This document shows positions 10,119-30,350 of a DNA stretch of 64,000 nucleotides, in pieces. Source of the DNA: Flectonema sp. DT1601. Its lineage: Eukaryota. Numbering within the stretch: position 1 is the first letter of the stretch; every line of letters begins with the position of its first letter. The translations under genes and the position numbers were made by a program. The notes under the pieces were generated by a model. The model worked only from the letters and a program-made list of their open reading frames with translations, was not told where the DNA came from and ran no database searches. The stretch is from the NCBI GenBank assembly GCA_964019425.1, contig OZ025801.1, positions 310,001 through 374,000 on the forward strand, written 5' to 3'.

Positions 10119-11788
10119 GTATTGTGATCAATTCTGATCAATCACTTCACTTCACGCATCTTATCTTTGATGTCCTACAATTTATTGATTGATCGTTTTG
10201 TTTATTTATTATTGTGATAACTTGCTAATACTAATAAAAAGTAGTACTCTTTTTTTTTTGAATCTTTTTTGATGACCGTTTATTCTATATAGGCCGCTCT
10301 GCATTCGCTTCAGATTTGTGTACTGTGGTGACCCATTGTAAACCAAAACTTGTACAAGTTTTTTTTCCAGCAGCGCTTTGGCTTAATCGTGTGTCTACAA
10401 TGAAGAAACTAAAACTGTTATGTAGTTTGCAGGGGGCAATAAATCGATCCCTCCCCCGACAATCATCTTTTTCATTTTCATCTTCTCCTGAAATAGCGTG
10501 GCTGCGTTGCGTCTACTGTAACTGGTACTGCTTCTTTCAGAAAACGTTTTTCTTTTTTTTTTAAAAAAAATTATTAAATTGTTGATTTCCCCCTCTTCTT
10601 ATTTGTCTGCCACAACCAATTCTGCATTTTTTTTTTTTTTTTCGAAAAAAAAATAAATAATGTTGTTCAGCAGAGAGCGTGAAAAAAATTGTAAAAGCGC
10701 GTGACTTTTTATTTGTTTTAAAATCCCCTCTTGTTTTATAAAGTCATAACAATTATCCATCATTACGAATGGATGGGGGAAAAAAAAGAAAATGCTGTTA
10801 AGCAGCCAGTGTGAATAACTTTGTTTAGGGCGCGTGACTTTGTCTTCGTTTTAATTTCCCCAAACAATTATCTGCCGCGCAACCGATATTGTTTTCTATC
10901 TTTTTTGCTACAAAAGGAGGAGGAATATTTTTTTTTTTTTTTTGTTCAACAGCCAACGTGAAGAATTGTTAGAGCGCGTGACTTGTCTTTGTTTCGTAGC
11001 TGGCAACTACTGTCTTCCAGCCTAACGATAAATGCTTGGAAATCAGGGAAGGCCAGGGAAATTTATTTTTTTTAATTTTCTTTCGTAGTATGGCGGCATT
11101 TGATACAAAGTAATTATTTTGAAGAAACGTTTTATTTTTTCGAACGGAAAAAATATATTTTATTTATTACTCTCATCTCCACTTCCCCAATTGATCATTT
11201 TTTCCCCCTTTTTTGTTTTCAACCTGTTAGTCTGGACAGGTGGGTAGTTGGGAATATCCTTCCGGCTATAAAAATACACTCTCTGTGGTTGAGTCCTCAA
11301 CTGGTGTGGGTTACCCAGACCCCCCGCAGTCATCAGTTCTCGACTTGCTCTAACCGCCAGCAGTAAGGAAAAGCGCCGAAAGACGATTATAGCAACTGAT
11401 GAAGGACATTGCGTGCATTTTATGAGAAGTAGTTGAAGAGATGCGTGCCCTACAATTTATTGATTGATCGATTATTTTATTTTATTATTGTGATGACTCG
11501 CTACTAGCTAATACTAACCACAACTGATTCTACTACTCTGGTCCGCTCACGGCGGTGATCTGATGGTTCTTTTTGGTTTTCGAAAATAACCAAAAACACT
11601 TTTTTTTTTTCTTTTTTTTTTTTTCACTGATTGACTTAAATCAAAAAAACTTATCGGGTGAAGGGAATTAACAGCGTCTCTTAAGCACTGCCCGCTGTGG
11701 GTCTGGGTAGTCACTTCTGGTTAACTTACGTCTCTTCTCACTTGTTGTGTTGAATTACTGTTACCAGGGGTTTTGACTTCCGACTTCG

Positions 11789-11819
<31 letters not shown>

Positions 11820-12130
11820 CCTAGCTACCATCGATCTTTACTCCCTTCCAGAGTGGCAACAGGTTCTCTCTTGTTGTCACGTACTTGCTTCTTAGTTAAG
11901 TGATTCACAAGAACATTGTTATTGTGATCAATTCTGATCTATCACTTCACTTCACTTCACTTCACTACTCACATTGAACTGTTGTAAAGCATCTTATCTT
12001 TGATGTCCTACAATTTATTGATTGATCGATTGTTTATTTATTATTGTGATAACTCGCAACTAGCTAATACTAACCACAACTGATCCTACTACTCTGGTCC
12101 GCTCACGGCGGTGATCTGAATGTTGTTCTT
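10119..12130. repeat. Dispersed non-coding repeat, 3 partial copies (~10119-10235, ~11447-11575, ~11917-12130)
   Basis: All three share CCTACAATTTATTGATTGATCG. Copies 1 and 3 share ATTGTGATCAATTCTGATC.ATCACTTCACTTCAC. Copies 2 and 3 share CTACTCTGGTCCGCTCACGGCGGTGATCTGA. Confidence 0.8.
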
Positions 12131-13444
12131 TTTTTTTTTTTTTTTTTTTTGCAATGCGACTTTTGGAAAATTTGAGGAGGAAAAAATAAGAGTGAAAATA
12201 AACCAAAAAAGTTTTTCTTCTTTTCTTAAAAATGTGCCTCGTGAATCCAAACAAGAGACAGCTTCCTGTTTCGTCGAGTAGTCGACTTGTTTACAATATT
12301 TAACCATTCATTCCACTGTCCCTCCCTTGACTCGAAGTGTTAAGGAGGTGGTCAGATGTCGGGTCTCAGATGTTTACAAAAGGTCTGACCTCTTGTGGAA
12401 TCTGGAGTTGTATTGTTTCCTGAAATCTGATAATAATAAAACTTTTTAATTCATTCCTTGACAAAGTAAAAGTCTTCTAATTATACTCAGAGGGTCCGCA
12501 TAGTTTACTGTGAGTTACCTTCTTGGAGCACTCATAATATACAGTAACGTTTGGATTAAATGACTAATTAGCAAACAAACAATGTAGATGCGAGTGGAGC
12601 TTCTTCTCCCTGCAACTATCCTTCTTTCATTTCGCTCATCAGACGCTTTATCCTTTTTTCTGTTTTTTAATATAATTTCTTGTTGCTGAAACCCTTTTGT
12701 GACTAAAAAATTATTTCTTTTTATCGTTGATTTCCCCCAGTGATTTCTTTTTTTTGGATTTATTTTTTCGTGTTCCCTTATGTGATGAAAAACTGAAAAA
12801 AAAAAAAAAAACTGTTTGTTCAGCAGACGTCGTGAATAAACTTGTTGGAGCGCGTGACTTGTGTTAGTTTTGTAGGCGACTACTCATTTGATTCTGTTCG
12901 TTACAGATTGATATGGTTATTCCTCCGCACCCTTAATTTAGTTTTAGCCAGTTTAAAGTTGCTTTGAATAGAGGTAAAGAGGGGCTGTGTAGACAACTCT
13001 CGAAAGGATAAGTTAATCGATCACCGCAGTTCACTTTATCCTTAGCAGATGTACGTTTTGAAAATTTTACAAAACGATCACCCCCCCTCCCTCTGATCCC
13101 GCTCAAACAGTTAACTAGTTTTAATTATGTGTTCCTCTCTCTTTTTTTGTTGTTTTCGGACAGCTGGGAAATGATCCTTCCAGCCGATCTCTATACTCTA
13201 CTGGTGGTGAGTTAGTAGCAACAGCTTTGTGTGTTGTTACTCACTTGTTTCGTAGTCCAGTAGTTCACGGGAATATATTTTGATCAAATCTTGATCAGTC
13301 ACTTTGCTCACATTTATCCAAACGAAAATATCAATTTGTTGGAGTGCTGCATTTTAGCTTCTTGTTGTTGCTGTCAATTTGATTTAAAAAAAAAAAATTC
13401 TTTTTTGAAAAAAAAAAAAAAAGGACGAATATAAAACAAACAAG

Positions 13445-19731: not shown

Positions 19732-20559
19732 TTAGTTCGATAGTTTAATAAGCTGCGGCGAGGCGGAAAGCTGGAGATTGGTATCCATTAATCTTTCGGT
19801 CGATGCTACTTCAACAATCTATGCTAAATCTTTGGATATGGCTAAGGATTGGGTTTTCTTGTCTGAGCTAAGCTAAGTCTCCTCCTCTGACTTGACTCAG
19901 TGCGACTCAAGACCCGTCCCTTTTGTTTTGATTACGAAAAAAAAAAAAAAAAAGGGAATTTACTTGTTATTTTAATAAAAAATAAATAAAAAGGTGATGA
20001 CATAATACAGTTTATCATTTTTTACCTTATTTATTTATTTATATTCAAACCTTACAAGCTACTTTAAACTAAACAACAATGCAAGTTTTTGTGACGTGTC
20101 CGGATTTTGGGTTCGACGCAGTTTCAGTTACGGCTGGTGTTGATTCCCTTGTGAGAGAAGTATTGACGGCGGCCGCTGGGGAGTGGGATGTCGATCCAGA
20201 GGAAATTGAACTCTCGTTCGCTGGTAACACGCTTTGTGAAAGTGATCGTTTAACAGATCATGGAGTGAGTACAGGCAGCGAGTTAGAGATATGGAAGAAG
20301 AGGTTTCGTATATTTAGTAAATGCTGGTTTGTTGATGATTCAAAACGGGAGAAGCTGCTTCGTTGGCTAAGAGAACACAATGAGGAATACTTATACCTAG
20401 ACACTCCTACATTCACAGGGGATGGTTGTCTCAGTCTTGAGGGTAGTTTACTGTCTTCAGATGCCGAACGGATTTCGTTCCGCAATTTTAATTCCGACAT
20501 CACAGTCTCACCAGTTACTATTGGGGATTGTTTCTTGTCTTCCTGTCCACAAATTACTT

Positions 20560-20632
20560 GGGTAACGAAACTCGGACAGCGCGCCTCCTCGTGGTGTTGC
20601 CTGGATGCACCTTGTGTGTAACTAGAGTGCTG
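20560..20632 (+). ncRNA. HDV-like self-cleaving ribozyme
   Basis: P1 GGGUAAC/GUUGCCU (G1-U wobble), P2 CAGCGC/GUGCUG, P3 GCC/GGU, L3 UCCUCGU, P1.1 CC/GG, P4 UGCAC/GUGUA, J4/2 CUAGA with candidate catalytic C20622. Confidence 0.85.
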
Positions 20633-21249
20633 ACGTATTGTTGTTGCTGTGTATTCTTTTACCCCCGTTTTATTTTCCGGTAGCCTAACCTTTAAAAAAA
20701 AGGACACCATAGCAGAAGGTCAGGTGATCCGGCCCGGGATACTCAGGCACCCAGAGCTCACAGGGGCCACCGGGTTTTTATTTTTTCCTTAGTGGCATGA
20801 TTTCCCTTTACCCCCATTTCCTTCGAACTTCCCCCGTTTAGTCTTTTCACGCATGGGGGGATTATAAGTTCAGGTCGCCTGAAATGTATTAACAGTATCA
20901 GCCCCGCGAGTTACTCGGGGAGCTCCCATGCAATGTGTGGAGAAAGAGGCCATCCCTCCCCCTACCTCTCTGCTTTACTACGTCGTTTTTTGTGTGTGGC
21001 ATTTCTTTTCTTATATTCTTTTCTTTTCAATCTTGTTCCTTCACACGCGGTTGTTCGAGCGGTTGTGAACCACCTTGGGTCTCTTACGGTCTCCAAGCTA
21101 CTGTTGTGCGAAGAAACAAATCTGTTGGTGCGGTGGCCTTCCGACGCCACCTGGACCGCAACTCGTTCACAGTGCCCTACCCGGTTCCCACCGGACCGCC
21201 TGAGCGACGGGATCCATGGGATTCAAAACCCTAAACACTGGTTAATTTT
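20560..21249 (+). mobile_element. 690-bp non-autonomous retroposon (SINE/SIDER-like) with a 20-bp TSD
   Basis: TTCCTGTCCACAAATTACTT is duplicated at 20540-20559 and 21250-21269. No credible ORF. HDV-like fold at the 5' end and a short T-rich 3' end. Confidence 0.85.
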
Positions 21250-21622
21250 TTCCTGTCCACAAATTACTTCTCTTGACCTTTCAAGTTTTAATAGTGTAGC
21301 TACAATTCAGGATTGTTTCTTGTCTTGTTGTTCAAAAATTACTTCTCTTGACCTTTCAGGTCTTAGTAGTGTAACTACAATTGGGGATTGTTTCTTGTCT
21401 TCCTGTCCGCAAATTAATTCTCTTGAGCTTTCGGGTCTTAGTAGTGTTGTCACCATTGGAGATGGCTTCTTATCGTTCTGTTCACAAATTACTTCTCTTG
21501 ACTTTTCGCGTCTTCGTAGTGTTGTCACTATTGGAGATGGCTTCTTATCATTCTGTTCACAAATAACAGCTCTTGACTTTTCGGGTCTAGGTAGTGTAGT
21601 CACTATTGGGGGTAGTTTCTTC

Positions 21623-22009
21623 GTCTGCTGGCTTCGTGCTTACCCAGGCAAGGGGGTAGGAACATTTCAAAACTAAAAGGCATTCAATCGCAGTTATCAA
21701 ACACCTGTTGAGACTGTGTGAGCGAACATGCATCTTCTTCCGAAAAGCACCACAAACTGTAGTGTTGCCAACCCAGATGGAAAGGTGGTCGGCCTTTGCA
21801 ATTCCTTTGAGTGTCTTCCCAAGAGCGTCCGCTTCAAGGATATTTATATGTCGGTCTTCACCAGCAGGCCATGCCGCACCAAGGTACTCCAACTCACCTG
21901 TTTCCCAAACAATGGCACCAAAACATCCCTGCAATGAGGCATCTACAAATCGGCAGTCCTCCCCTCTTTCTGCTCAGGCATTCTCCCCTTCTGCACAGCA
22001 CCGATCCAC
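21623..22009 (-). mobile_element. Inverted RNase H fragment of the YR retrotransposon
   Basis: Reverse complement matches ~28128-28530 and ~29745-30130 (HINILEADALGK). Carries the WVGN variant of copy C. Confidence 0.9.
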
Positions 22010-22020
22010 TCACAATTAGT

Positions 22021-22058
22021 ACCAACGATTCTAAAGCTACAGTTTCTGTACTTTATTG
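22021..22058 (+). other. Spliced-leader (SL) exon sequence fixed in the genome at the 5' end of retrotransposon copy A
   Basis: ACCAACGATTCTAAAGCTACAGTTTCTGTACTTTATTG: euglenozoan SL 3' core CAGTTTCTGTACTTTATTG with a Diplonema-like 5' part (comparison from memory). Joined directly to TTCTCACACCCC. Confidence 0.9.
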
Positions 22059-24138
22059 TTCTCACACCCCTGTCTTCATCACAAGAAAACTTATATTTAA
22101 ATTAAGTTAAAGAATGACTCGTGTAAATTTTGAGTTCCCTGAGTTCTTAATTGAGACTTGGAAGGCGCAGATGGGTGAGGAACCACCAAAGAAGCTCGAT
22201 AATATCAATCTGGACGAGCTGGTTGCAAGCATCCCCTTTAGCATCGACTTAAGTACATTGAGATCCGACAAGGAGACAAGAAGGTTGATCCAAGGCACAC
22301 TGGCCATGTGTCTCGGGATCTCCAATGATGCGGCCAAGACACTTTCAATGAATAAGTGTCTAGTAATACTTGGTGTGTTATCAAGGAGCCGCCTGCAGTT
22401 GGTCAACCAGAGCGCCGCCCGGATGAGCAAGCGGATATCTAAGGGGGGGTCGGGTAGGCTGGTGACGCACGACGAGGCGGAGGATGCGATGGGATCGCTG
22501 CAGCAGAGCACAGACACACTGAGAAGTGATACCAAGCAGGGGTTCGACTCGCTGAGAAACGCAGACGGCGTTTAGCCAGTATCAGAGGGAGAGCCAATCA
22601 GTGAGGAGAAGGGTTGGGGAGGCCACTGAAAAAGCCGAGAACATCGGAGGCATGTGGGAGGCCTTCAGAGAACAACAGACCCAACAACAACAAGCTAGCG
22701 TTACCCAGCAAATCACACAACAGCAGAGAGATCAGCAAAAGCAGAATGCAGAAGTGATCCAGAAAATCTTACAAGAAATAGCAGATCTGAAGACGGCTCA
22801 ACAAGTTCCAGTAGTCGGGGGGGCAGCACAGCAACTACCAGCACCGGGGTCGAACGAAGCGATGACACGGGAGGTGACTGATCCGTCTGCAGGCAGGGAT
22901 GTAACAAAGTGGGCATCCGTTATGAAGTCAGGAAAGGCCGAGGCACTGATCCATGGGATCAGGGAGCGATATGTGAACGGTCTGGAGTACAAGGTTGGTG
23001 GGGGCCAGCTACTTCAGGCAGTTGAAGAACTTCGTTCTCGGTTTGGAGTACGTTGAAGGGTGGGAGGAGAACCCGCACTTTGTGGAGTTGGGGAACGAGC
23101 TGTTGGAGCAACTGCGGATGCAGTATTACTTTTGCAAGGATGGTACGAAGAGATCAGAGTTGGAGATGATCTTAGAAGTTGCATCGGGGGACCCTCTGGA
23201 GAAAGCAAACGCAATAGCGAAGAGAAATAGAAATGCGAAGATGCAACAACCGAAACGGAAAGGGGGGAGATCGTTTGTCTCTACGTATCCATCGTCGGGA
23301 AACGGGAGAGGGTTCGCGAAGTGACCAGCCGACCGGACCCTGCAAGTAACAACAAAACCAACGTTCCTAAAACGAAGGTTAGACACGCAAGTATTGGAAA
23401 CATCCCCATTGCCAAAGTTAAAGTTGAGAAAGCCCGCAAGACTTATGCAGAAGCACTCAAGACAGGTGTTGAGGAGCAGCCGACTAAAAGCAAGGTTAGG
23501 AGGATCTGTAAGTTTAATCGTTCAAGACCCGGGCAACATTGTAAAATCCGCAGTCCGAGGATTCCCCAGCGGAAGGGAGATGAAAATAAGCTCAGTTGGA
23601 ACAGAAGAGATCGCAGATTCAAGGGAAACAATGCCCTCAGAAGGATTAGAAGGAAATGTGGTTGGGAAGATCCTGTTGGACATGATGGAGGGATGCCCAG
23701 AGGGGACGAAGAGGCGGCATGCCGAGGATTCCGTCACATACATGGAGGCGACAGAAAAGCTTCAAGAAACACTGGGGAAGATGTGGGCCTCAAAGACAAC
23801 AGCAAGCAGGCGGAATCTGTGGAGAAGATTTCGGGCCTGGGCAAGGGAAAAGGAGAAACCAGCAAACGCAAGCTCGGCTGTTCTGTTCGTGATGGCGACA
23901 GGTGTGGCAGTGCAAGGGCTTCTCTCTTATGCAAAGAGTCTGTCTGCAGTGATGGGGGCTGTTGAGCTTAGCTGCAGCACTGAGGGCGAACGGGGCGGCA
24001 ATACCGCTGGAACAGGCAACGCCAATGACAAGACCTGGTGGATTGGGCAAGGGGGCAAGACTTAAAGACCCACTTGGCAATGCTAGTGTGCTGGAAGACT
24101 GCATCAAGATGGGGCGAGACCGCAGCGCTCTCAAGGGA
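22059..24138 (+). mobile_element. YR retrotransposon copy A: SL-headed, frameshifted gag, 3'-truncated inside YR
   Basis: Homologous to 24349-26532. gag is split into ORFs 22114-22575, 22601-23056 and 22995-23324. Homology ends at TCAAGGGA. Confidence 0.9.
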
Positions 24139-24190
24139 TCAAAATTCCATTTAGGTAATTTGCCACCGAAACTGAGCACCAAACAAAAAC

Positions 24191-24263
24191 CGCCGTCAGC
24201 GGGTTTTGAACCCTCGACCGCCATTCTTGCAGACCGGCGTTCTATCAATTGAGCTATGTAGCC
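24191..24263 (-). promoter_or_regulatory. Degenerate tRNA(Cys, GCA)-like sequence with A box, B box and T5 terminator in the element's 5' leader
   Basis: 73 nt with canonical tRNA spacing: GGCTACA TA GCTC AATTGATA GAAC G CCGGT CTGCAAG AATGG CGGTC GAGGG TTCAAAA CCCGC TGACGGC G, then GTTTTT. Acceptor stem only 4/7 paired. Confidence 0.7.
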
Positions 24264-24329
24264 ACATAATCGACGTTTCTTTTATTTCTATAAGTCAATG
24301 TCTCTATTAGTTTTCTGACGATATCAAAT

Positions 24330-24348
24330 ATTTCTATCCCTTTATCAG
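24330..24348 (+). promoter_or_regulatory. SL trans-splice acceptor of the retrotransposon mRNA (second copy AG at 28994-28995)
   Basis: TTTCTATCCCTTTATCAG|TTCTCACACCCC. Copy A has the SL joined at exactly this position. Confidence 0.88.
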
Positions 24349-24403
24349 TTCTCACACCCCTGTCTTCATCACAAGAAAACTTATATTTAAATTAAGTTAA
24401 ATA

Positions 24404-25666
24404 ATGACTCGTGTAAATTTTGAGTTCCCTGAGTTCCTAGTGGAGATTTGGAAGGCACGAATGGGTGAGGAACCGCCAAAGAAGTTGGATAATATTAATT
24501 TGGATGAGCTGATTGCAAGCATCCCCTTTAGCATCGATTTAAGTACATTGAGATCGGACAAGGAGACGAGGAGGTTGATCCAAGGCACACTGGCTATGTG
24601 TCTTGGGATCTCAAGCGACGCAGCCAAGACACTTTCGATGAATAAGTGTCTAGTAATACTGGGGGTTCTATCAAGGAGCCGCTTGCAGTTGGTCAACCAG
24701 AGCGCCGCCCGGATGAGCGAGCGGATATCCAAGGGGGGGTCGGATAGGTTGGTGACACACGACGAGGCGGAGGATGCGATGGGATCGCTGCAGCAGGGCA
24801 CGGACACGCTCCGAAGCGACACCAAGCAAGGATTCGACTCGTTGAGAAACGAATGTCAGAAGGAATCCCAATCGGTGAGGAGAAGGGTTGGGGAGGCCGC
24901 CGAGAAAGCTGAGAACATCGGGGGCATGTGGGAAGCATTCAAAGAGCAACAGGTTCTACAACAGCAACAACAAGATAACATCATCCAGCAGCTCACACAG
25001 CAACAACAAGATCAGCAGGACCAGAATACTGCATTGTTCCAGAGCATCAGTCAACAACAACAGGTCCATCAGGAACAACAGGCAGCCGTGATACAAGGTA
25101 TCATGCAGGAATTAGCAGGTCTGAAGAAGAGGTCTACCACAACTCAGCAAGGGCCAGTAGCAGTACCTCAAGCACCAAAGACGGAAGAAGAAGAAGCAAC
25201 ACAGGAGGTGACCGACCCATCTGCAGCCAGAGATGTAAAAAGATGGGCAGCAGTAATGAGTTCGGGAAGGACCGAGGCTCTGGTACACGGGATCAGAGAG
25301 AGGTATGTTAACAGCCTCGAATACAAAGTTGGGGGAAGCCAACTTCTCAGTTATTTCAAGCAATTGAAAAACTTTATACTCGGGTTCGAATATGTAGTAG
25401 CGTGGGAAGAAAACCCCCACTTCGTAGAGCTAGGTAACGATTTGTTGGAGCAGCTGCGGATTCAGCATTACTTCTGCAAGGATGGGACGAAGAGATCCGA
25501 GCTGGAGATGATAATGAAAGTGGCATCGGAAGACCCGTTGGAGAAGGCAAACGCCATAGCTAAGAGGAACAAACATGTGAAGCTGCAGCAACCAAAATGG
25601 AAAGGAGGGAAGGCGTCTGTTTCCACATACCCAGCATCGGGAAACGGGAGAGGGTTCGCGAAGTGA
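24404..25666 (+). CDS. Gag-like ORF1 of the YR retrotransposon
   Basis: 420-aa first ORF after the splice acceptor, with a Q-rich coiled-coil. The Gag assignment is positional. Confidence 0.75.
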   Translation: MTRVNFEFPEFLVEIWKARMGEEPPKKLDNINLDELIASIPFSIDLSTLRSDKETRRLIQGTLAMCLGISSDAAKTLSMNKCLVILGVLSRSRLQLVNQSAARMSERISKGGSDRLVTHDEAEDAMGSLQQGTDTLRSDTKQGFDSLRNECQKESQSVRRRVGEAAEKAENIGGMWEAFKEQQVLQQQQQDNIIQQLTQQQQDQQDQNTALFQSISQQQQVHQEQQAAVIQGIMQELAGLKKRSTTTQQGPVAVPQAPKTEEEEATQEVTDPSAARDVKRWAAVMSSGRTEALVHGIRERYVNSLEYKVGGSQLLSYFKQLKNFILGFEYVVAWEENPHFVELGNDLLEQLRIQHYFCKDGTKRSELEMIMKVASEDPLEKANAIAKRNKHVKLQQPKWKGGKASVSTYPASGNGRGFAK

Positions 25667-28600
25667 CCAGCCGACCGGACCCTGCAAGTAACAACAGTAC
25701 TCCCAAGACGAAGGTTAGAGTACAGGAATATGCAAGTATTAGAAACACTCCCATTACCAAGGTTGAAGTATTTAAGGAAACCAGCAAGACTTATGCAGAA
25801 GCGCTCAAAACAGGTATTGAAGGACGGCCGACTACGAACAAGGTTAAGAAGATCCATAAGTTCGATCGTTCGAGGCCCGGACAACAATATAAAATCCGCA
25901 GTCCGAGGATCCCCCAGCGGAAGGGAGATGGAAGCAAATTCAGACAGAGAAACGGGAGAGATAAATTCCACACCAATCACAGTCACAACGGATACAATGC
26001 CCTCAGAAGAATTAGGAAAAAACATAGTTGGAAGAATTCTGCTGAACATGATGGAGGGATGCCCCGAGGGGGCAAAGAAGCGGCATGCGGAGGATTCCGT
26101 TACATACATAGAAGCGACGGAAAGACTTCAAGAAACACTAGAGAAGATGTGGGCCTCAAAGACAACAGCAAGCAGGCGGAATCTGTGGAGAAGATTTCGG
26201 GCCTGGGCAAGGGAAAAGGAGAAACCAGCAAACGCAAGCTCGGCTGTTCTGTTCGTGATGGCGACAGGTGTGGCAGTGCAGGGGCTTCTCTCTTATGCAA
26301 AGAGTCTATCTGCAGTGATGGGGAGAATCGGAATAGAAAACGGACCTCTGTTGAGCTTAGCTGCAGCACTGAGGGCGAACGGAGCGGCAATACCACTAGA
26401 ACAGGCAACGCCAATGACAAGTTTCGACCTGGTGGATTGGGCAAGGGGGCAAGACTTAAAGACCCACTTGGCAATGCTAGTGTGCTGGAAGACTGCATCA
26501 AGATGGGGCGAGACCGCAGCGCTCTCAAGGGACCAGTTCATCTCTGTAAGTCCGTCAGAGATCATTATCGATTGGTTCCGCACGCCGAAGGGAAGGAGGG
26601 CAAACCCTTACTCGCCAAGCAGATGGACGGTGATAAAGGGGAATCACACAGAAGAGATAAAGATCTTGCTGGATGCGATGGGGGAGTTCAAAAAACTACA
26701 CCCGTGGGACACGTCAAAATTAGTGAAAACGTTCCAGCAGGACGGCAGGATGAAAAGATACACCGCCCACTCAATAAAAAGGGGTGCGATAAGTCATCTG
26801 TTGGAAGTTCTGGCATCCGACCAAGAGCAGCAAGGACTCACAGAAGGGCTGATAAGCAGGCTGGCCAAGCATGCAGGAGTGTCGGCTCTTTCGGACACCA
26901 CGCTGAGGTACGGGGGGAACCCAATTGCAATGGCGAGGGCGTTAAAGACAGGGGATGTCACCTGTTTCCTGTAGTTGATAGATCAAAAAATGCGAGCGAA
27001 CGGGATGTGATGCGGAGCGTAGCAGCTCAGTTCACACACAGAACAAAGAGCACGCGCATTCCCATAACGAAGGAGGAGATATCTTCACCACTACATGTGG
27101 CCCCTACACCTAAGATGGATGTTTCAGCTGTGAGGGGGAGGATGCTGCCATCGGTCCTGAAGAGGTTTGATTATGTTTGGGACCTCACCTTCTTTCCTAA
27201 GGATTCTTCTGTCAATGCACGGCTCTCGAGGAGGGCAACTTCGAAGTTGGCAGGGAAACATGCAAGAGAATTGGTTGAGTGTGGTATTGCAGTGCCGAGT
27301 GATTCTGTACCGCTGTCTCGGAATGTACCATTTACAGTGTATGAGGAGAGGGAGACGGGGAACAGACAGCGGTTCATCCTCTGGACAAAAGAGCAGAACG
27401 AACTGATCTCGTCTGGGGGATATGAACCATTCGTTCCACTGCAGCACATTTCTTGTTACCTGGATGCTGTACATTCGGAGGTGGCATCCTGCAGGGACTT
27501 CAAGACTGGATTCTACCAGGTCTGCATACCTGAGGAGTCAACTTCACTCTTCAGTTTCTCTGATTCAGCTGGGAAGGTTTATTCTTTGACTCGACTTCCG
27601 ATGGGTCATGTGTGTGCCCCAGAACTGATGAACACCATCGCTGCAGTAGTTGCTGGTGACCCGCTGTTCGTTAAGAAAGAATTTGCGGAGGAGGAAGTTG
27701 GGATTCACTGGTGGATTGATAACATTAGGTTATTTGGTCCCAAGGAGAAGGTTAAATGCGCAGCTGAGAGGATGGACTCCTTTGCCAGAATGGCAAACAT
27801 CACATGGAAACCAAGTGATACTGTGGATCTCTCTCCGGAGTATGAGTTCTTGGGGGTCACCTTTGATCACCATACAGACAGGGTGAGCTTGGGGACCAAG
27901 ATTGGGAGAAAAATCAAGAACACCAACCTTGATTCATTGACTGCATCGGAGTTGGAGTCCTTAGGAGGTCGCCTGTTGCATGCCAGCTCCATTGTTGGAG
28001 TTCCACCTGGGAAGTACTGGTTTAGCTTGAAGTATCTTCGCAGAGTCACAAATTACCCGAACAAGGGAACCCTACAAGTACAGCAGGTACTAAAATTGCC
28101 CCGTTCAGTAAGGAGGGAATTAGAAATGTGGATCGGTGCTGTGCAGAAGGAGAGAATAATTATGCCTGAGCAGAAAGAGGGGAGGACTGCCGAAGTGTTT
28201 GTAGATGCCTCATTGCAGGGATGGGGAGGTGTCATTGTTTGGAAAACAGGTGAGTTGGAAATTCTTGGTGCGGCATGGCCTGCTGGTGAAGACCGACATA
28301 TAAATATCCTTGAAGCGGACGCTCTTGGGAAGACACTCAAAGGAATTGCAAAGGCCGACCACCTTTCCATCTGGGTTGACAACACTACAGTTTGTGGTGC
28401 TTTTCGGAAGAAGATGTGTGTTCGCTCACACAGTCTCAACAGGTGTTTGATAACTGCGATTGAATGCCTTTTAGTTTTGAAATGTTCCTACTCCCTTGCC
28501 TGGGTAAGCACGAAGCTAAACCCAGCAGACATTCCTTCTCGAGAGGAAGTCTCACACGGAACGAGAGCGAAGGTTGAACAAGCGTTGGGGTGGTTCTTTA

Positions 28601-28704
28601 ACTCGCGTGGTGGTGGTGGTGCCGGTGTCCCGTCGAATCGAAACGGCCCGGTACAACCCCTACGCAGAAGTAATCTGCACCACAGTGTAGATTCTTCTAA
28701 GTGA
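25597..28704 (+). CDS. Reverse transcriptase / RNase H ORF (probably entered by -1 frameshift from gag)
   Basis: RT motifs RDFKTGFYQ, RLPMG, WIDN, EFLG. DIRS-type RNase H motifs VFVDAS..GWG, HINILE, WVDNTT, NPADIPSR. Confidence 0.92.
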   Translation: MERREGVCFHIPSIGKRERVREVTSRPDPASNNSTPKTKVRVQEYASIRNTPITKVEVFKETSKTYAEALKTGIEGRPTTNKVKKIHKFDRSRPGQQYKIRSPRIPQRKGDGSKFRQRNGRDKFHTNHSHNGYNALRRIRKKHSWKNSAEHDGGMPRGGKEAACGGFRYIHRSDGKTSRNTREDVGLKDNSKQAESVEKISGLGKGKGETSKRKLGCSVRDGDRCGSAGASLLCKESICSDGENRNRKRTSVELSCSTEGERSGNTTRTGNANDKFRPGGLGKGARLKDPLGNASVLEDCIKMGRDRSALKGPVHLCKSVRDHYRLVPHAEGKEGKPLLAKQMDGDKGESHRRDKDLAGCDGGVQKTTPVGHVKISENVPAGRQDEKIHRPLNKKGCDKSSVGSSGIRPRAARTHRRADKQAGQACRSVGSFGHHAEVRGEPNCNGEGVKDRGCHLFPVVDRSKNASERDVMRSVAAQFTHRTKSTRIPITKEEISSPLHVAPTPKMDVSAVRGRMLPSVLKRFDYVWDLTFFPKDSSVNARLSRRATSKLAGKHARELVECGIAVPSDSVPLSRNVPFTVYEERETGNRQRFILWTKEQNELISSGGYEPFVPLQHISCYLDAVHSEVASCRDFKTGFYQVCIPEESTSLFSFSDSAGKVYSLTRLPMGHVCAPELMNTIAAVVAGDPLFVKKEFAEEEVGIHWWIDNIRLFGPKEKVKCAAERMDSFARMANITWKPSDTVDLSPEYEFLGVTFDHHTDRVSLGTKIGRKIKNTNLDSLTASELESLGGRLLHASSIVGVPPGKYWFSLKYLRRVTNYPNKGTLQVQQVLKLPRSVRRELEMWIGAVQKERIIMPEQKEGRTAEVFVDASLQGWGGVIVWKTGELEILGAAWPAGEDRHINILEADALGKTLKGIAKADHLSIWVDNTTVCGAFRKKMCVRSHSLNRCLITAIECLLVLKCSYSLAWVSTKLNPADIPSREEVSHGTRAKVEQALGWFFNSRGGGGAGVPSNRNGPVQPLRRSNLHHSVDSSK
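25639..25683 (+). promoter_or_regulatory. Putative -1 programmed ribosomal frameshift signal (G_GGA_AAC + stem-loop)
   Basis: Slippery heptamer correctly phased in gag (TCG GGA AAC). The -1 frame is the RT ORF. 5-nt spacer, then stem AGGGTTCG/CGGACCCT. Identical in copy A (23297-23341). Confidence 0.75.
25730..26974 (+). CDS. Tyrosine recombinase (YR), overlapping the RT ORF and in frame with gag
   Basis: WKTASRWGE (R), PKG (K), YTAHSIKRGA, LAKH and TTLRYG (Y) catalytic pattern. Confidence 0.9.
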   Translation: MQVLETLPLPRLKYLRKPARLMQKRSKQVLKDGRLRTRLRRSISSIVRGPDNNIKSAVRGSPSGREMEANSDRETGEINSTPITVTTDTMPSEELGKNIVGRILLNMMEGCPEGAKKRHAEDSVTYIEATERLQETLEKMWASKTTASRRNLWRRFRAWAREKEKPANASSAVLFVMATGVAVQGLLSYAKSLSAVMGRIGIENGPLLSLAAALRANGAAIPLEQATPMTSFDLVDWARGQDLKTHLAMLVCWKTASRWGETAALSRDQFISVSPSEIIIDWFRTPKGRRANPYSPSRWTVIKGNHTEEIKILLDAMGEFKKLHPWDTSKLVKTFQQDGRMKRYTAHSIKRGAISHLLEVLASDQEQQGLTEGLISRLAKHAGVSALSDTTLRYGGNPIAMARALKTGDVTCFL

Positions 28705-28785
28705 TCTCAGACTTGTTAACTGCATGTTCATTCAATTAAGTATACTTCTCTTTCCCAGGTGCATACAGTATAGGAAGGCTAATTA

Positions 28786-30350
28786 TCAAAATTCCATTTA
28801 GGTAATTTGCCACCGAAACTGAGCACCAAACAAAAACCGCCGTCAGCGGGTTTTGAACCCTCGACCGCCATTCTTGCAGACCGGTGTTCTATCAATTGAG
28901 CTATGTAGCCACATAATCGACGTTTCTTTTATTTCTATAAGTCAATGTCTCTATTAGTTTTCTGACGATATCAAATATTTCTATCCCTTTATCAGTTCTC
29001 ACACCCCTGTCTTCATCACAAGAAAACTTATATTTAAATTAAGTATGAACCATTCGTTCCACTGCAGCACATTTCTTGTTACCTGGATGCTGTGCATTCG
29101 GAGGTGGCATCCTGCAGGGACTTCAAGACTGGATTCTACCAGGTCTGCATACCTGAGGAGTCAACTTCACTCTTCAGTTTCTCTGATTCGGCTGGGAAGG
29201 TTTATTCTTTGACTCGACTTCCGATGGGTCATGTGTGTGCCCCAGAATTGATGAACACCATCGCTGCAGTAGTTGCTGGTGACCCGCTGTTCGTTAAGAA
29301 AGAATTTGCGGAGGAGGAAGTTGGGATTCACTGGTGGATCGATAACATTAGGTTATTTGGTCCCAAGGAGAAGGTTAAATGCGCAGCTGAGAGGATGGAC
29401 TCCTTTGCCAGAATGGCAAACATCACATGGAAACCTGTGGATCTCTCTCCGGAGTATGAGTTCTTGGGGGTCACCTTTGATCACCATACGGACAGGGTGG
29501 GCTTGGGGACCAAGATTGGGAGAAAAATCAAGAACACCAACCTTGATTCATTGACTGCATCGGAGTTGGGATCCTTAGGAGGTCGCCTGTTGCATGCCAG
29601 CTCCATTGTTGGAGTTCCACCTGGGAAGTACTGGTTTAGCTTGAAGTATCTTCGCAGGGTCACAAATTACTTGAACAAGGGGACCCTACAAGTACAGCAG
29701 GTACTAAAATTGCCCCGTCCAGTAAGGAGGGAATTAGAAATGTGGATCGGTGCTGTGCAGAAGGAGAGAATAATTATGCCTGAGCAGAAAGAGGGGAGGA
29801 CTGCCGAAGTGTTTGTAGATGCCTCATTGCAGGGATGGGGAGGTGTCATCGTTTGGAAAACAGGTGAGCTGGAAATTCTTGGTGCGGCATGGCCTGCTGG
29901 TGAAGACCGACATATAAATATCCTTGAAGCGGACGCTCTTGGGAAGACACTCAAAGGAATTGCAAAGGCCGACCACCTTTCCATCTGGGTTGGCAACACT
30001 ACAGTTTGTGGTGCTTTTAGGAAGAAGGTGTGTGTTCGCTCACACAGTCTCAACAGGTGTTTGATAACTGCGATTGAATGCCTTTTAGTTTTGAAATGTT
30101 CCTACCCCCTTGCCTGGGTAAGCACGAAGCTACATTCCTTCTCGAGAGGAAGTCTCACACGGAACGAGAGCGAAAGTTGAACAAGCGTTGGGGTCGTTCT
30201 TTAACTCGCGTGGTGGTGGTGGTGCCGGTGTCCCGTCGAATCGAAACGGCCCGGTACAACCCCTACGCAGAAGTAATCTGCACCACAGTGTAGATTCTTC
30301 CTTGTGATCAGACTTGTTAACTGGTGCATACAGTATAGGAAGGCTAATTA
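28786..30350 (+). mobile_element. YR retrotransposon copy C, internally deleted (~3.0 kb; lacks gag, YR and the RT N-terminus)
   Basis: Leader 28786-29044 is near-identical to 24139-24397 and is joined at a shared T to the 27421-equivalent position. The RNase H D-to-G change (WVGN) and a frameshifting deletion near 30131 suggest it is inactive. Confidence 0.9.
28838..28910 (-). promoter_or_regulatory. Second copy of the tRNA(Cys)-like A/B-box element
   Basis: One substitution relative to 24191-24263. Confidence 0.7.

What the first reader, a model, noticed from the sequence alone, without database searches (positions are those of the whole stretch)
20540..21269. New ribozyme-headed short retroposon: HDV-like fold starting exactly at the TSD boundary
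Seen: the first inserted base (G20560) is G1 of a complete HDV-type double pseudoknot whose P3/L3 (GCC UCCUCGU GGU) is nearly the same as genomic HDV. The TSD is a perfect 20-mer and excision restores the LRR frame, so the insertion is recent. Established: HDV-like ribozymes define the 5' ends of R2, RTE and L1Tc/ingi elements. Inference: a non-autonomous element that self-cleaves out of host transcripts. It does not resemble the CCCTGG-starting L1Tc/ingi signature and ends in a short T run rather than poly(A).
Basis: partly seen in the sequence, partly recalled or inferred. Interest (0 to 1): 0.82.

Follow-up and report, generated by a model that had tools for sequence, protein, structure and literature searches.

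The report
Ribozyme-headed retroposon targeting LRR gene repeats
A short mobile element that begins with a predicted self-cleaving RNA sits at one fixed position of the leucine-rich-repeat unit in many members of one protein family, so it is likely a site-specific retroposon that uses protein-coding repeats as its landing site.

Summary
A 690-bp insert (20560-21249) has an exact 20-bp target-site duplication, starts at G1 of a complete HDV-type fold (1 hit in the window, 0 in 40 shuffled windows) and interrupts a ubiquitin-like/LRR gene. Of 56 family proteins retrieved, 17 (the window's included) end in the element's first codons, all at the same codon of the 25-residue LRR unit. They span nine local contexts, repeat numbers 1 to about 9, 13 contigs and scattered branches of the family tree. 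A 5'-truncated copy (P0029) and a different insert compatible with a related ribozyme plus a long ORF (P0004) sit at the same site. Variants in other copies keep P1, P2 and P4 paired. Best reading: a non-autonomous non-LTR retroposon, released from LRR co-transcripts by its ribozyme and inserted by a site-specific partner reverse transcriptase. Cleavage was not tested, the partner was not found, and insertions outside this family could not be searched. Ribozyme-headed short retroposons and gene-family hot spots (RIME/ingi in RHS) are known; I found no report of targeting a coding LRR repeat.

The parts
20079..20559 (+). 5' part of host gene: ubiquitin-like domain, linker, first LRR unit up to the insertion site
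   Evidence: ORF; paralogs; weak Rad60-SLD/ubiquitin Pfam hits in paralogs
20540..20559 (+). left target-site duplication (20 bp)
20560..21249 (+). 690-bp non-coding retroposon, one copy in the window
   Evidence: other copies
20560..20632 (+). HDV-like ribozyme fold: P1 20560-66/20596-602, P2 20577-82/20627-32, P3 20583-85/20593-95, L3 20586-92, P1.1 20587-88/20603-04, P4 about 20605-21, putative catalytic C20622
   Evidence: variants
20985..21042 (+). pyrimidine-rich tract inside the element, role unknown
   Evidence: sequence
21150..21249 (+). 3' 100 nt, all that a 5'-truncated copy (P0029) retains; ends in a T run at 21246-21249
21250..21269 (+). right target-site duplication (20 bp)
21253..21626 (+). 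remaining host LRR array, 5 units of 75 bp (Pfam LRR_5)

Best explanation
The insert is a short non-coding element that sits at one fixed codon of the LRR repeat in many paralogous genes and is likely a site-specific, non-autonomous non-LTR retroposon whose 5' HDV-like fold is predicted to cut it free from host transcripts. Shown: the TSD, the fold, 17 of 56 family proteins broken at the same phase by the same head in sense orientation, and one 5'-truncated copy there. Inferred: (1) the LRR gene is transcribed through the element; (2) the ribozyme cleaves 5' of G20560 and so defines the element's 5' end; (3) a partner LINE protein binds the 3' end, nicks the bottom strand at the TSD start and primes reverse transcription, with the RNA's U run able to pair with the primer's terminal AA; (4) a second nick 20 nt downstream, after the first base of the codon that follows Thr in C-x-x-I-T, gives the 20-bp TSD; (5) each insertion truncates one LRR protein, which is tolerated because the family is large and each gene offers several sites. 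P0004, with a related predicted ribozyme and a long Gln-rich ORF at the same site, is the candidate partner or a sister family.
For:: TSD and fold; 17 of 56 paralogs end in [W/G]VTKLG, all after C-x-x-[I/L/N]-T. There are 9 different five-residue contexts, one with a different base at -1 (P0050), and 0 in the two other frames or strands that could be detected; on the N-terminal-domain tree (44 rows, 14 carriers) the label needs 9 changes (bootstrap 8-10; at least 6 forced by starred branches). P0029 is shifted-frame LRR up to the site, then element from 21150, then LRR. G20599A turns P1 U.G into U-A (runs X1 and X2; also P0037's C-to-Y); C20577T keeps P2 as U.G and gives the stop that explains the 12 short tails; the X2 copy rebuilds P4 with +CT and T20615A and stays paired (pairing read by hand); the peptide after P0004's break can be back-translated into the fold with the same GCC-UCCUCG core (0 of 3000 shuffles; 1 of 5087 windows).
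Against: No cleavage data. In nested-only folding P1 is improbable even for the ribozyme alone (0.03), and 20 nt of upstream target lower P2 from 0.41 to 0.05 (pseudoknots are not modelled). The X1 contig lacks 11 nt that include C20622 (depth 2). J4/2 is one base longer than in HDV as I recall it. Other copies are known almost only as translated peptides, so their TSDs and lengths are unseen. No RT/endonuclease partner was found. The search was by host protein, so copies elsewhere are invisible. The AU one-clade test did not finish, and label clustering was near the shuffle range (20 of 500 shuffles as low). P0046 joins LRR to element-internal sequence at another phase.
Confidence: 0.75

Rival explanations
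1. The element is a dispersed retroposon of an ingi/RTE-like partner with only a loose sequence preference, and the LRR site is one hot spot among many genomic sites, as RHS genes are for ingi/RIME.
For: Only LRR-family proteins were searched. RHS genes show that such hot spots exist for Pr77-headed elements (PMC7563717). The ribozyme's P2 3' strand ends in the same five letters as the L1Tc +77 primer printed in PMC3185411 (by eye).
Against: No second copy in the 64-kb window. Both element junctions seen in run X1 lead into LRR sequence. No poly(A) tail. TSD is 20 bp against 9 nt described for L1Tc (PMC5814959).
Confidence: 0.15
2. One or a few old insertions were spread among paralogs by gene conversion and unequal crossing-over between LRR arrays, without repeated targeting.
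For: Tandem 75-bp repeats recombine readily; 8 of 17 share the context CSQIT; some carriers cluster on the tree.
Against: Residues right at the junction vary, including the base at -1. The window's TSD matches only its own repeat unit. A truncated copy and a different element share the site.
Confidence: 0.07
3. The 5' fold is a decayed or non-catalytic signature (for example a Pr77-like internal promoter), and the 5' end is set by transcription start.
For: Competing pairings; one copy lacks the catalytic C; Pr77 is also a promoter (PMC4035085).
Against: All helices and the L3 U/G, catalytic C and following A are present, and the variants seen keep pairing.
Confidence: 0.08

Closest known systems
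RIME/NARTc/SIDER (ingi/L1Tc clade) and their hot spot in trypanosome RHS genes
   Same: Short non-coding element with a 5' HDV-like ribozyme of similar size; euglenozoan-type host; repeated insertion at one site of a protein multigene family, leaving truncated proteins (PMC4035085, PMC7563717).
   Different: No Pr77 sequence beyond two 5-nt matches seen by eye; T run instead of poly(A); 20-bp TSD; the target is an internal coding repeat present several times per gene.
R2 SIDE and R2/R1 hybrid SIDE of Drosophila
   Same: 5' HDV-like ribozyme plus a partner's 3' end, site-specific, released from a co-transcript of the target gene (PMC3414825, abstract).
   Different: Target is 28S rDNA, TSD none (recalled, for R2) or 14 bp (hybrid); here a protein-coding repeat.
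CRE/SLACS/CZAR; Utopia
   Same: Site-specific non-LTR elements; CRE is euglenozoan; reptile Utopia makes 20-bp TSDs (PMC12278014, PMC4640811).
   Different: They target spliced-leader or U2 genes and are autonomous; no ribozyme was reported for them in the passages I read.
TcTREZO
   Same: Site-specific element found mostly in MASP pseudogenes (PMC5814959).
   Different: Composite of genomic fragments; no ribozyme head mentioned in the passage read.

Membership tests
HDV-like ribozyme | Nested double pseudoknot P1, P1.1, P2, P3, P4 | tested here: met
HDV-like ribozyme | G1.U at the cleavage site, U and G in L3, catalytic C with a downstream A in J4/2 | tested here: met
   G20560.U20602, U20586/G20591, C20622, A20624/A20626 (importance of these positions from PMC3774820 passages)
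HDV-like ribozyme | Match to a curated Rfam family | tested here: not met
HDV-like ribozyme | Mg2+-dependent self-cleavage | not testable with these tools
   needs an assay
non-autonomous non-LTR retroposon | TSD, no long ORF, no terminal repeats, multiple copies | tested here: met
non-autonomous non-LTR retroposon | 5'-truncated copies with intact 3' end | tested here: met
   one case, P0029
non-autonomous non-LTR retroposon | Autonomous partner sharing the 3' end | tested here: inconclusive
   no genome held; P0004 tail has no Pfam or Atlas hit
ingi/L1Tc clade | Pr77 hallmark | tested here: inconclusive
   compared by eye only, with L1Tc primers printed in PMC3185411: two 5-nt matches
ingi/L1Tc clade | poly(A) tail | tested here: not met
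   T run
CRE/SLACS or R2 clade | Insertion in spliced-leader or 28S genes | tested here: not met
   target is LRR coding sequence
CRE/SLACS or R2 clade | Partner with RT and restriction-like endonuclease | not testable with these tools
   partner DNA not available

The most novel reading that the evidence does not exclude
A dedicated retrotransposon lineage, with P0004's ribozyme-headed long-ORF element as master, has evolved strict specificity for a degenerate protein-coding repeat. It treats LRR units as other site-specific elements treat rRNA or snRNA genes, has truncated about a third of the family, and may be guided partly by LRR sequence read through at the RNA's 3' end.
Probability: 0.35. 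Interest if true: 0.85.

Novelty: new variant of a known kind. Interest (0 to 1): 0.68.

Why it matters
[quoted passage not shown] A family aimed at one codon of a variable LRR unit would add a coding-repeat target. It would give a natural test of how an endonuclease/RT recognises a degenerate site with a fixed 20-bp stagger, and would act as a recurrent knock-out force on a large LRR family. It also supplies new HDV-like ribozyme variants that Rfam misses.

Tried and rejected
Rfam: no HDV-like hit. No whole genome held. Exact-pattern scans of metagenome contigs and viral contigs: 0 matches. Earlier scan notes: nothing. The P0004 tail has no Pfam or Atlas hit, and the HMMER search of representatives never ran, so the partner's clade is open. 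The in-frame ORF 20933-21676 is a chance fusion: other copies differ by indels at 21187 and 21246. The element's 3' 210 nt fold no better than shuffles (z -0.64). P0016's break does not fit the ribozyme core. The test that P0029 has a perfect TSD is weak: its site repeat fits, but so does 1 of its 2 earlier repeats (0 of 5 window repeats). X2's short 36-nt matches at 21056-21091 run on into unrelated sequence and were set aside. The X2 RNA contig (20566-20873) shows presence only, not transcription or a start. The PDB search for a lineage marker gave nothing. P0033 and P0045 stop exactly at the site but were not counted as carriers.

Full report
Observation. The 20-mer at 20540-20559 recurs exactly at 21250-21269 and extends on neither side; the 690 bp between have no second copy in the window. 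Removing the insert and one copy opens a 295-codon frame of a ubiquitin-like domain followed by LRR_5 repeats. The gene's end is separately cut by an inverted piece of a tyrosine-recombinase element (21631-22009). The first 73 nt form all HDV helices. A descriptor written for this fold hits only G20560 in the window, with 0 hits in 40 shuffled windows and 0 of 2000 element shuffles. Rfam gives no HDV-like family.

Host. A 39-nt leader at 22020-22058 is joined exactly where two other copies of the neighbouring element have a pyrimidine tract and AG, which points to a retro-copied trans-spliced mRNA. I recall the leader as resembling the diplonemid spliced leader; a paper search for it found nothing. 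With a TATE/VIPER-like element and ORFs apparently broken by introns, the host is probably a diplonemid-like euglenozoan (inference).

Other copies. No genome was held, so I read copies off truncated paralogs. Two searches with the host N-terminal part (24 hits; 25 hits, query including the element-derived tail, which may favour carriers) and two cluster look-ups gave 56 distinct family proteins. Of these, 17, including the window's own, end in the element's first codons: 12 stop after VTKLG and 5 run on as in the window. All 17 break after the Thr of C-x-x-[I/L/N]-T. There are nine five-residue contexts; P0050 has Gly rather than Trp at the junction, so even the base at -1 differs. Breaks fall from the first repeat (P0031) to about the ninth (P0055), on 13 different contig lengths; that these come from one assembly is likely but not shown. 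No protein ends in the element's head in frame +1 or in the two detectable reverse frames; the frames that stop at once cannot be seen. With 25 codons per unit, 16 further copies at the same codon cannot be chance if they are independent. On a tree of the N-terminal domain (44 of the first 45 proteins; P0050 dropped; 14 carriers) the label needs 9 changes, at least 6 forced by starred branches; 20 of 500 label shuffles were as low, and the one-clade test did not finish.

Three more loci bear on mechanism. P0029 is shifted-frame LRR up to the site, then the element from 21150 on, then LRR again: a 5'-truncated copy, the mark of target-primed reverse transcription. P0004 breaks at the same site into different sequence whose first 30 residues can be back-translated into the fold with the same P3/L3 core, a 6-bp P1 and 5 of 6 P2 pairs; 0 of 3000 shuffles and no other of 5087 windows did so. 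A Gln-rich ORF of about 400 residues follows, with no Pfam or Atlas hit. P0033 and P0045 stop exactly at the site (not counted). Against uniformity, P0046 joins LRR to element-internal sequence at another phase.

DNA variants. Three runs hold parts of the stretch. In X1 one contig carries the element's head behind an internal LRR unit and another carries its tail into LRR sequence. G20599A (X1, X2, and P0037's Cys-to-Tyr) makes P1's U.G a U-A pair. C20577T (X1) keeps P2 as U.G and creates the stop of the 12 short tails. X2's P4 has +CT and T20615A and still pairs (read by hand). The same X1 contig lacks 11 nt including C20622, so it is a dead copy or an error at depth 2. Nested-only folding gives P1 low probability and shows upstream target sequence competing with P2 (0.41 to 0.05), so the window copy may cleave poorly.

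Mechanism. The parts fit a non-autonomous non-LTR element that is co-transcribed in sense with its LRR host, cut free at G1 by the ribozyme, and inserted by a partner RT/endonuclease with a 20-nt stagger at one phase of the repeat. The U run could pair with the AA at the primer end. Cleavage, the partner and strict specificity are inferred.

Comparison. Ribozyme-headed short elements are known: NARTc, RIME and SIDER (PMC4035085, part 1 of 7 read) and R2 SIDEs (PMC3414825, abstract). RHS genes are a hot spot for ingi/RIME (PMC7563717, passages), and TcTREZO inserts in MASP pseudogenes (PMC5814959, passages). Lists of known targets name RNA genes, transposons and simple repeats (PMC4640811, PMC8869645, passages). 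The D. papillatum genome paper notes SLACS, LINE-1, R2/jockey and TATE ORFs and has 0 occurrences of 'ribozyme' (PMC10161547, passages). Passages were also read in PMC12278014, PMC3774820, PMC6765202, PMC3185411 and PMC6681497. Searches showed no LRR-targeting or diplonemid ribozyme-headed element in their listings; the library lacks most subscription papers and I opened no supplements. I recall, without confirmation here, that the 2009 survey of HDV-like ribozymes included a Diplonema sequence, so the ribozyme's presence in this lineage may not be new.

Verdict. Real, and more interesting for its targeting than for its ribozyme: a new variant of a known kind, interest 0.68.

Noticed in passing
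window 22020-22058: 39-nt spliced-leader-like sequence fused to a TATE/VIPER-like unit exactly where sister copies (about 24347 and 28994) have a pyrimidine tract and AG: a retro-copied trans-spliced mRNA.
   Followed up: partly
window 22051-30350: Tandem, partly degenerate element with a Gag-like ORF and overlapping ORFs read as tyrosine-recombinase-like and RT/RNase H-like (only a weak RVT_1 hit in Pfam), TATE/VIPER-like; 260-bp and 28-bp split repeats.
   Followed up: partly
window 21631-22009: Inverted 389-bp fragment (93% identical) of that element truncates the same LRR gene.
   Followed up: partly
P0004: Second insert at the same LRR site, compatible with a related HDV-like fold, followed by a long Gln-rich ORF; candidate autonomous partner.
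   Followed up: partly
P0016, P0022, P0038, P0052, P0054: Further family members that break into unrelated sequence at various positions; other insertions or frameshifts.
   Followed up: no
window 10120-12884: Non-coding region with dispersed repeats: an 80-140 bp unit three times, and a motif ending GCGCGTGACT four times; no Rfam hit.
   Followed up: no
window 21056-21091: 36-nt stretch matched at about 89% by several unrelated marine metatranscriptome contigs; unexplained.
   Followed up: no
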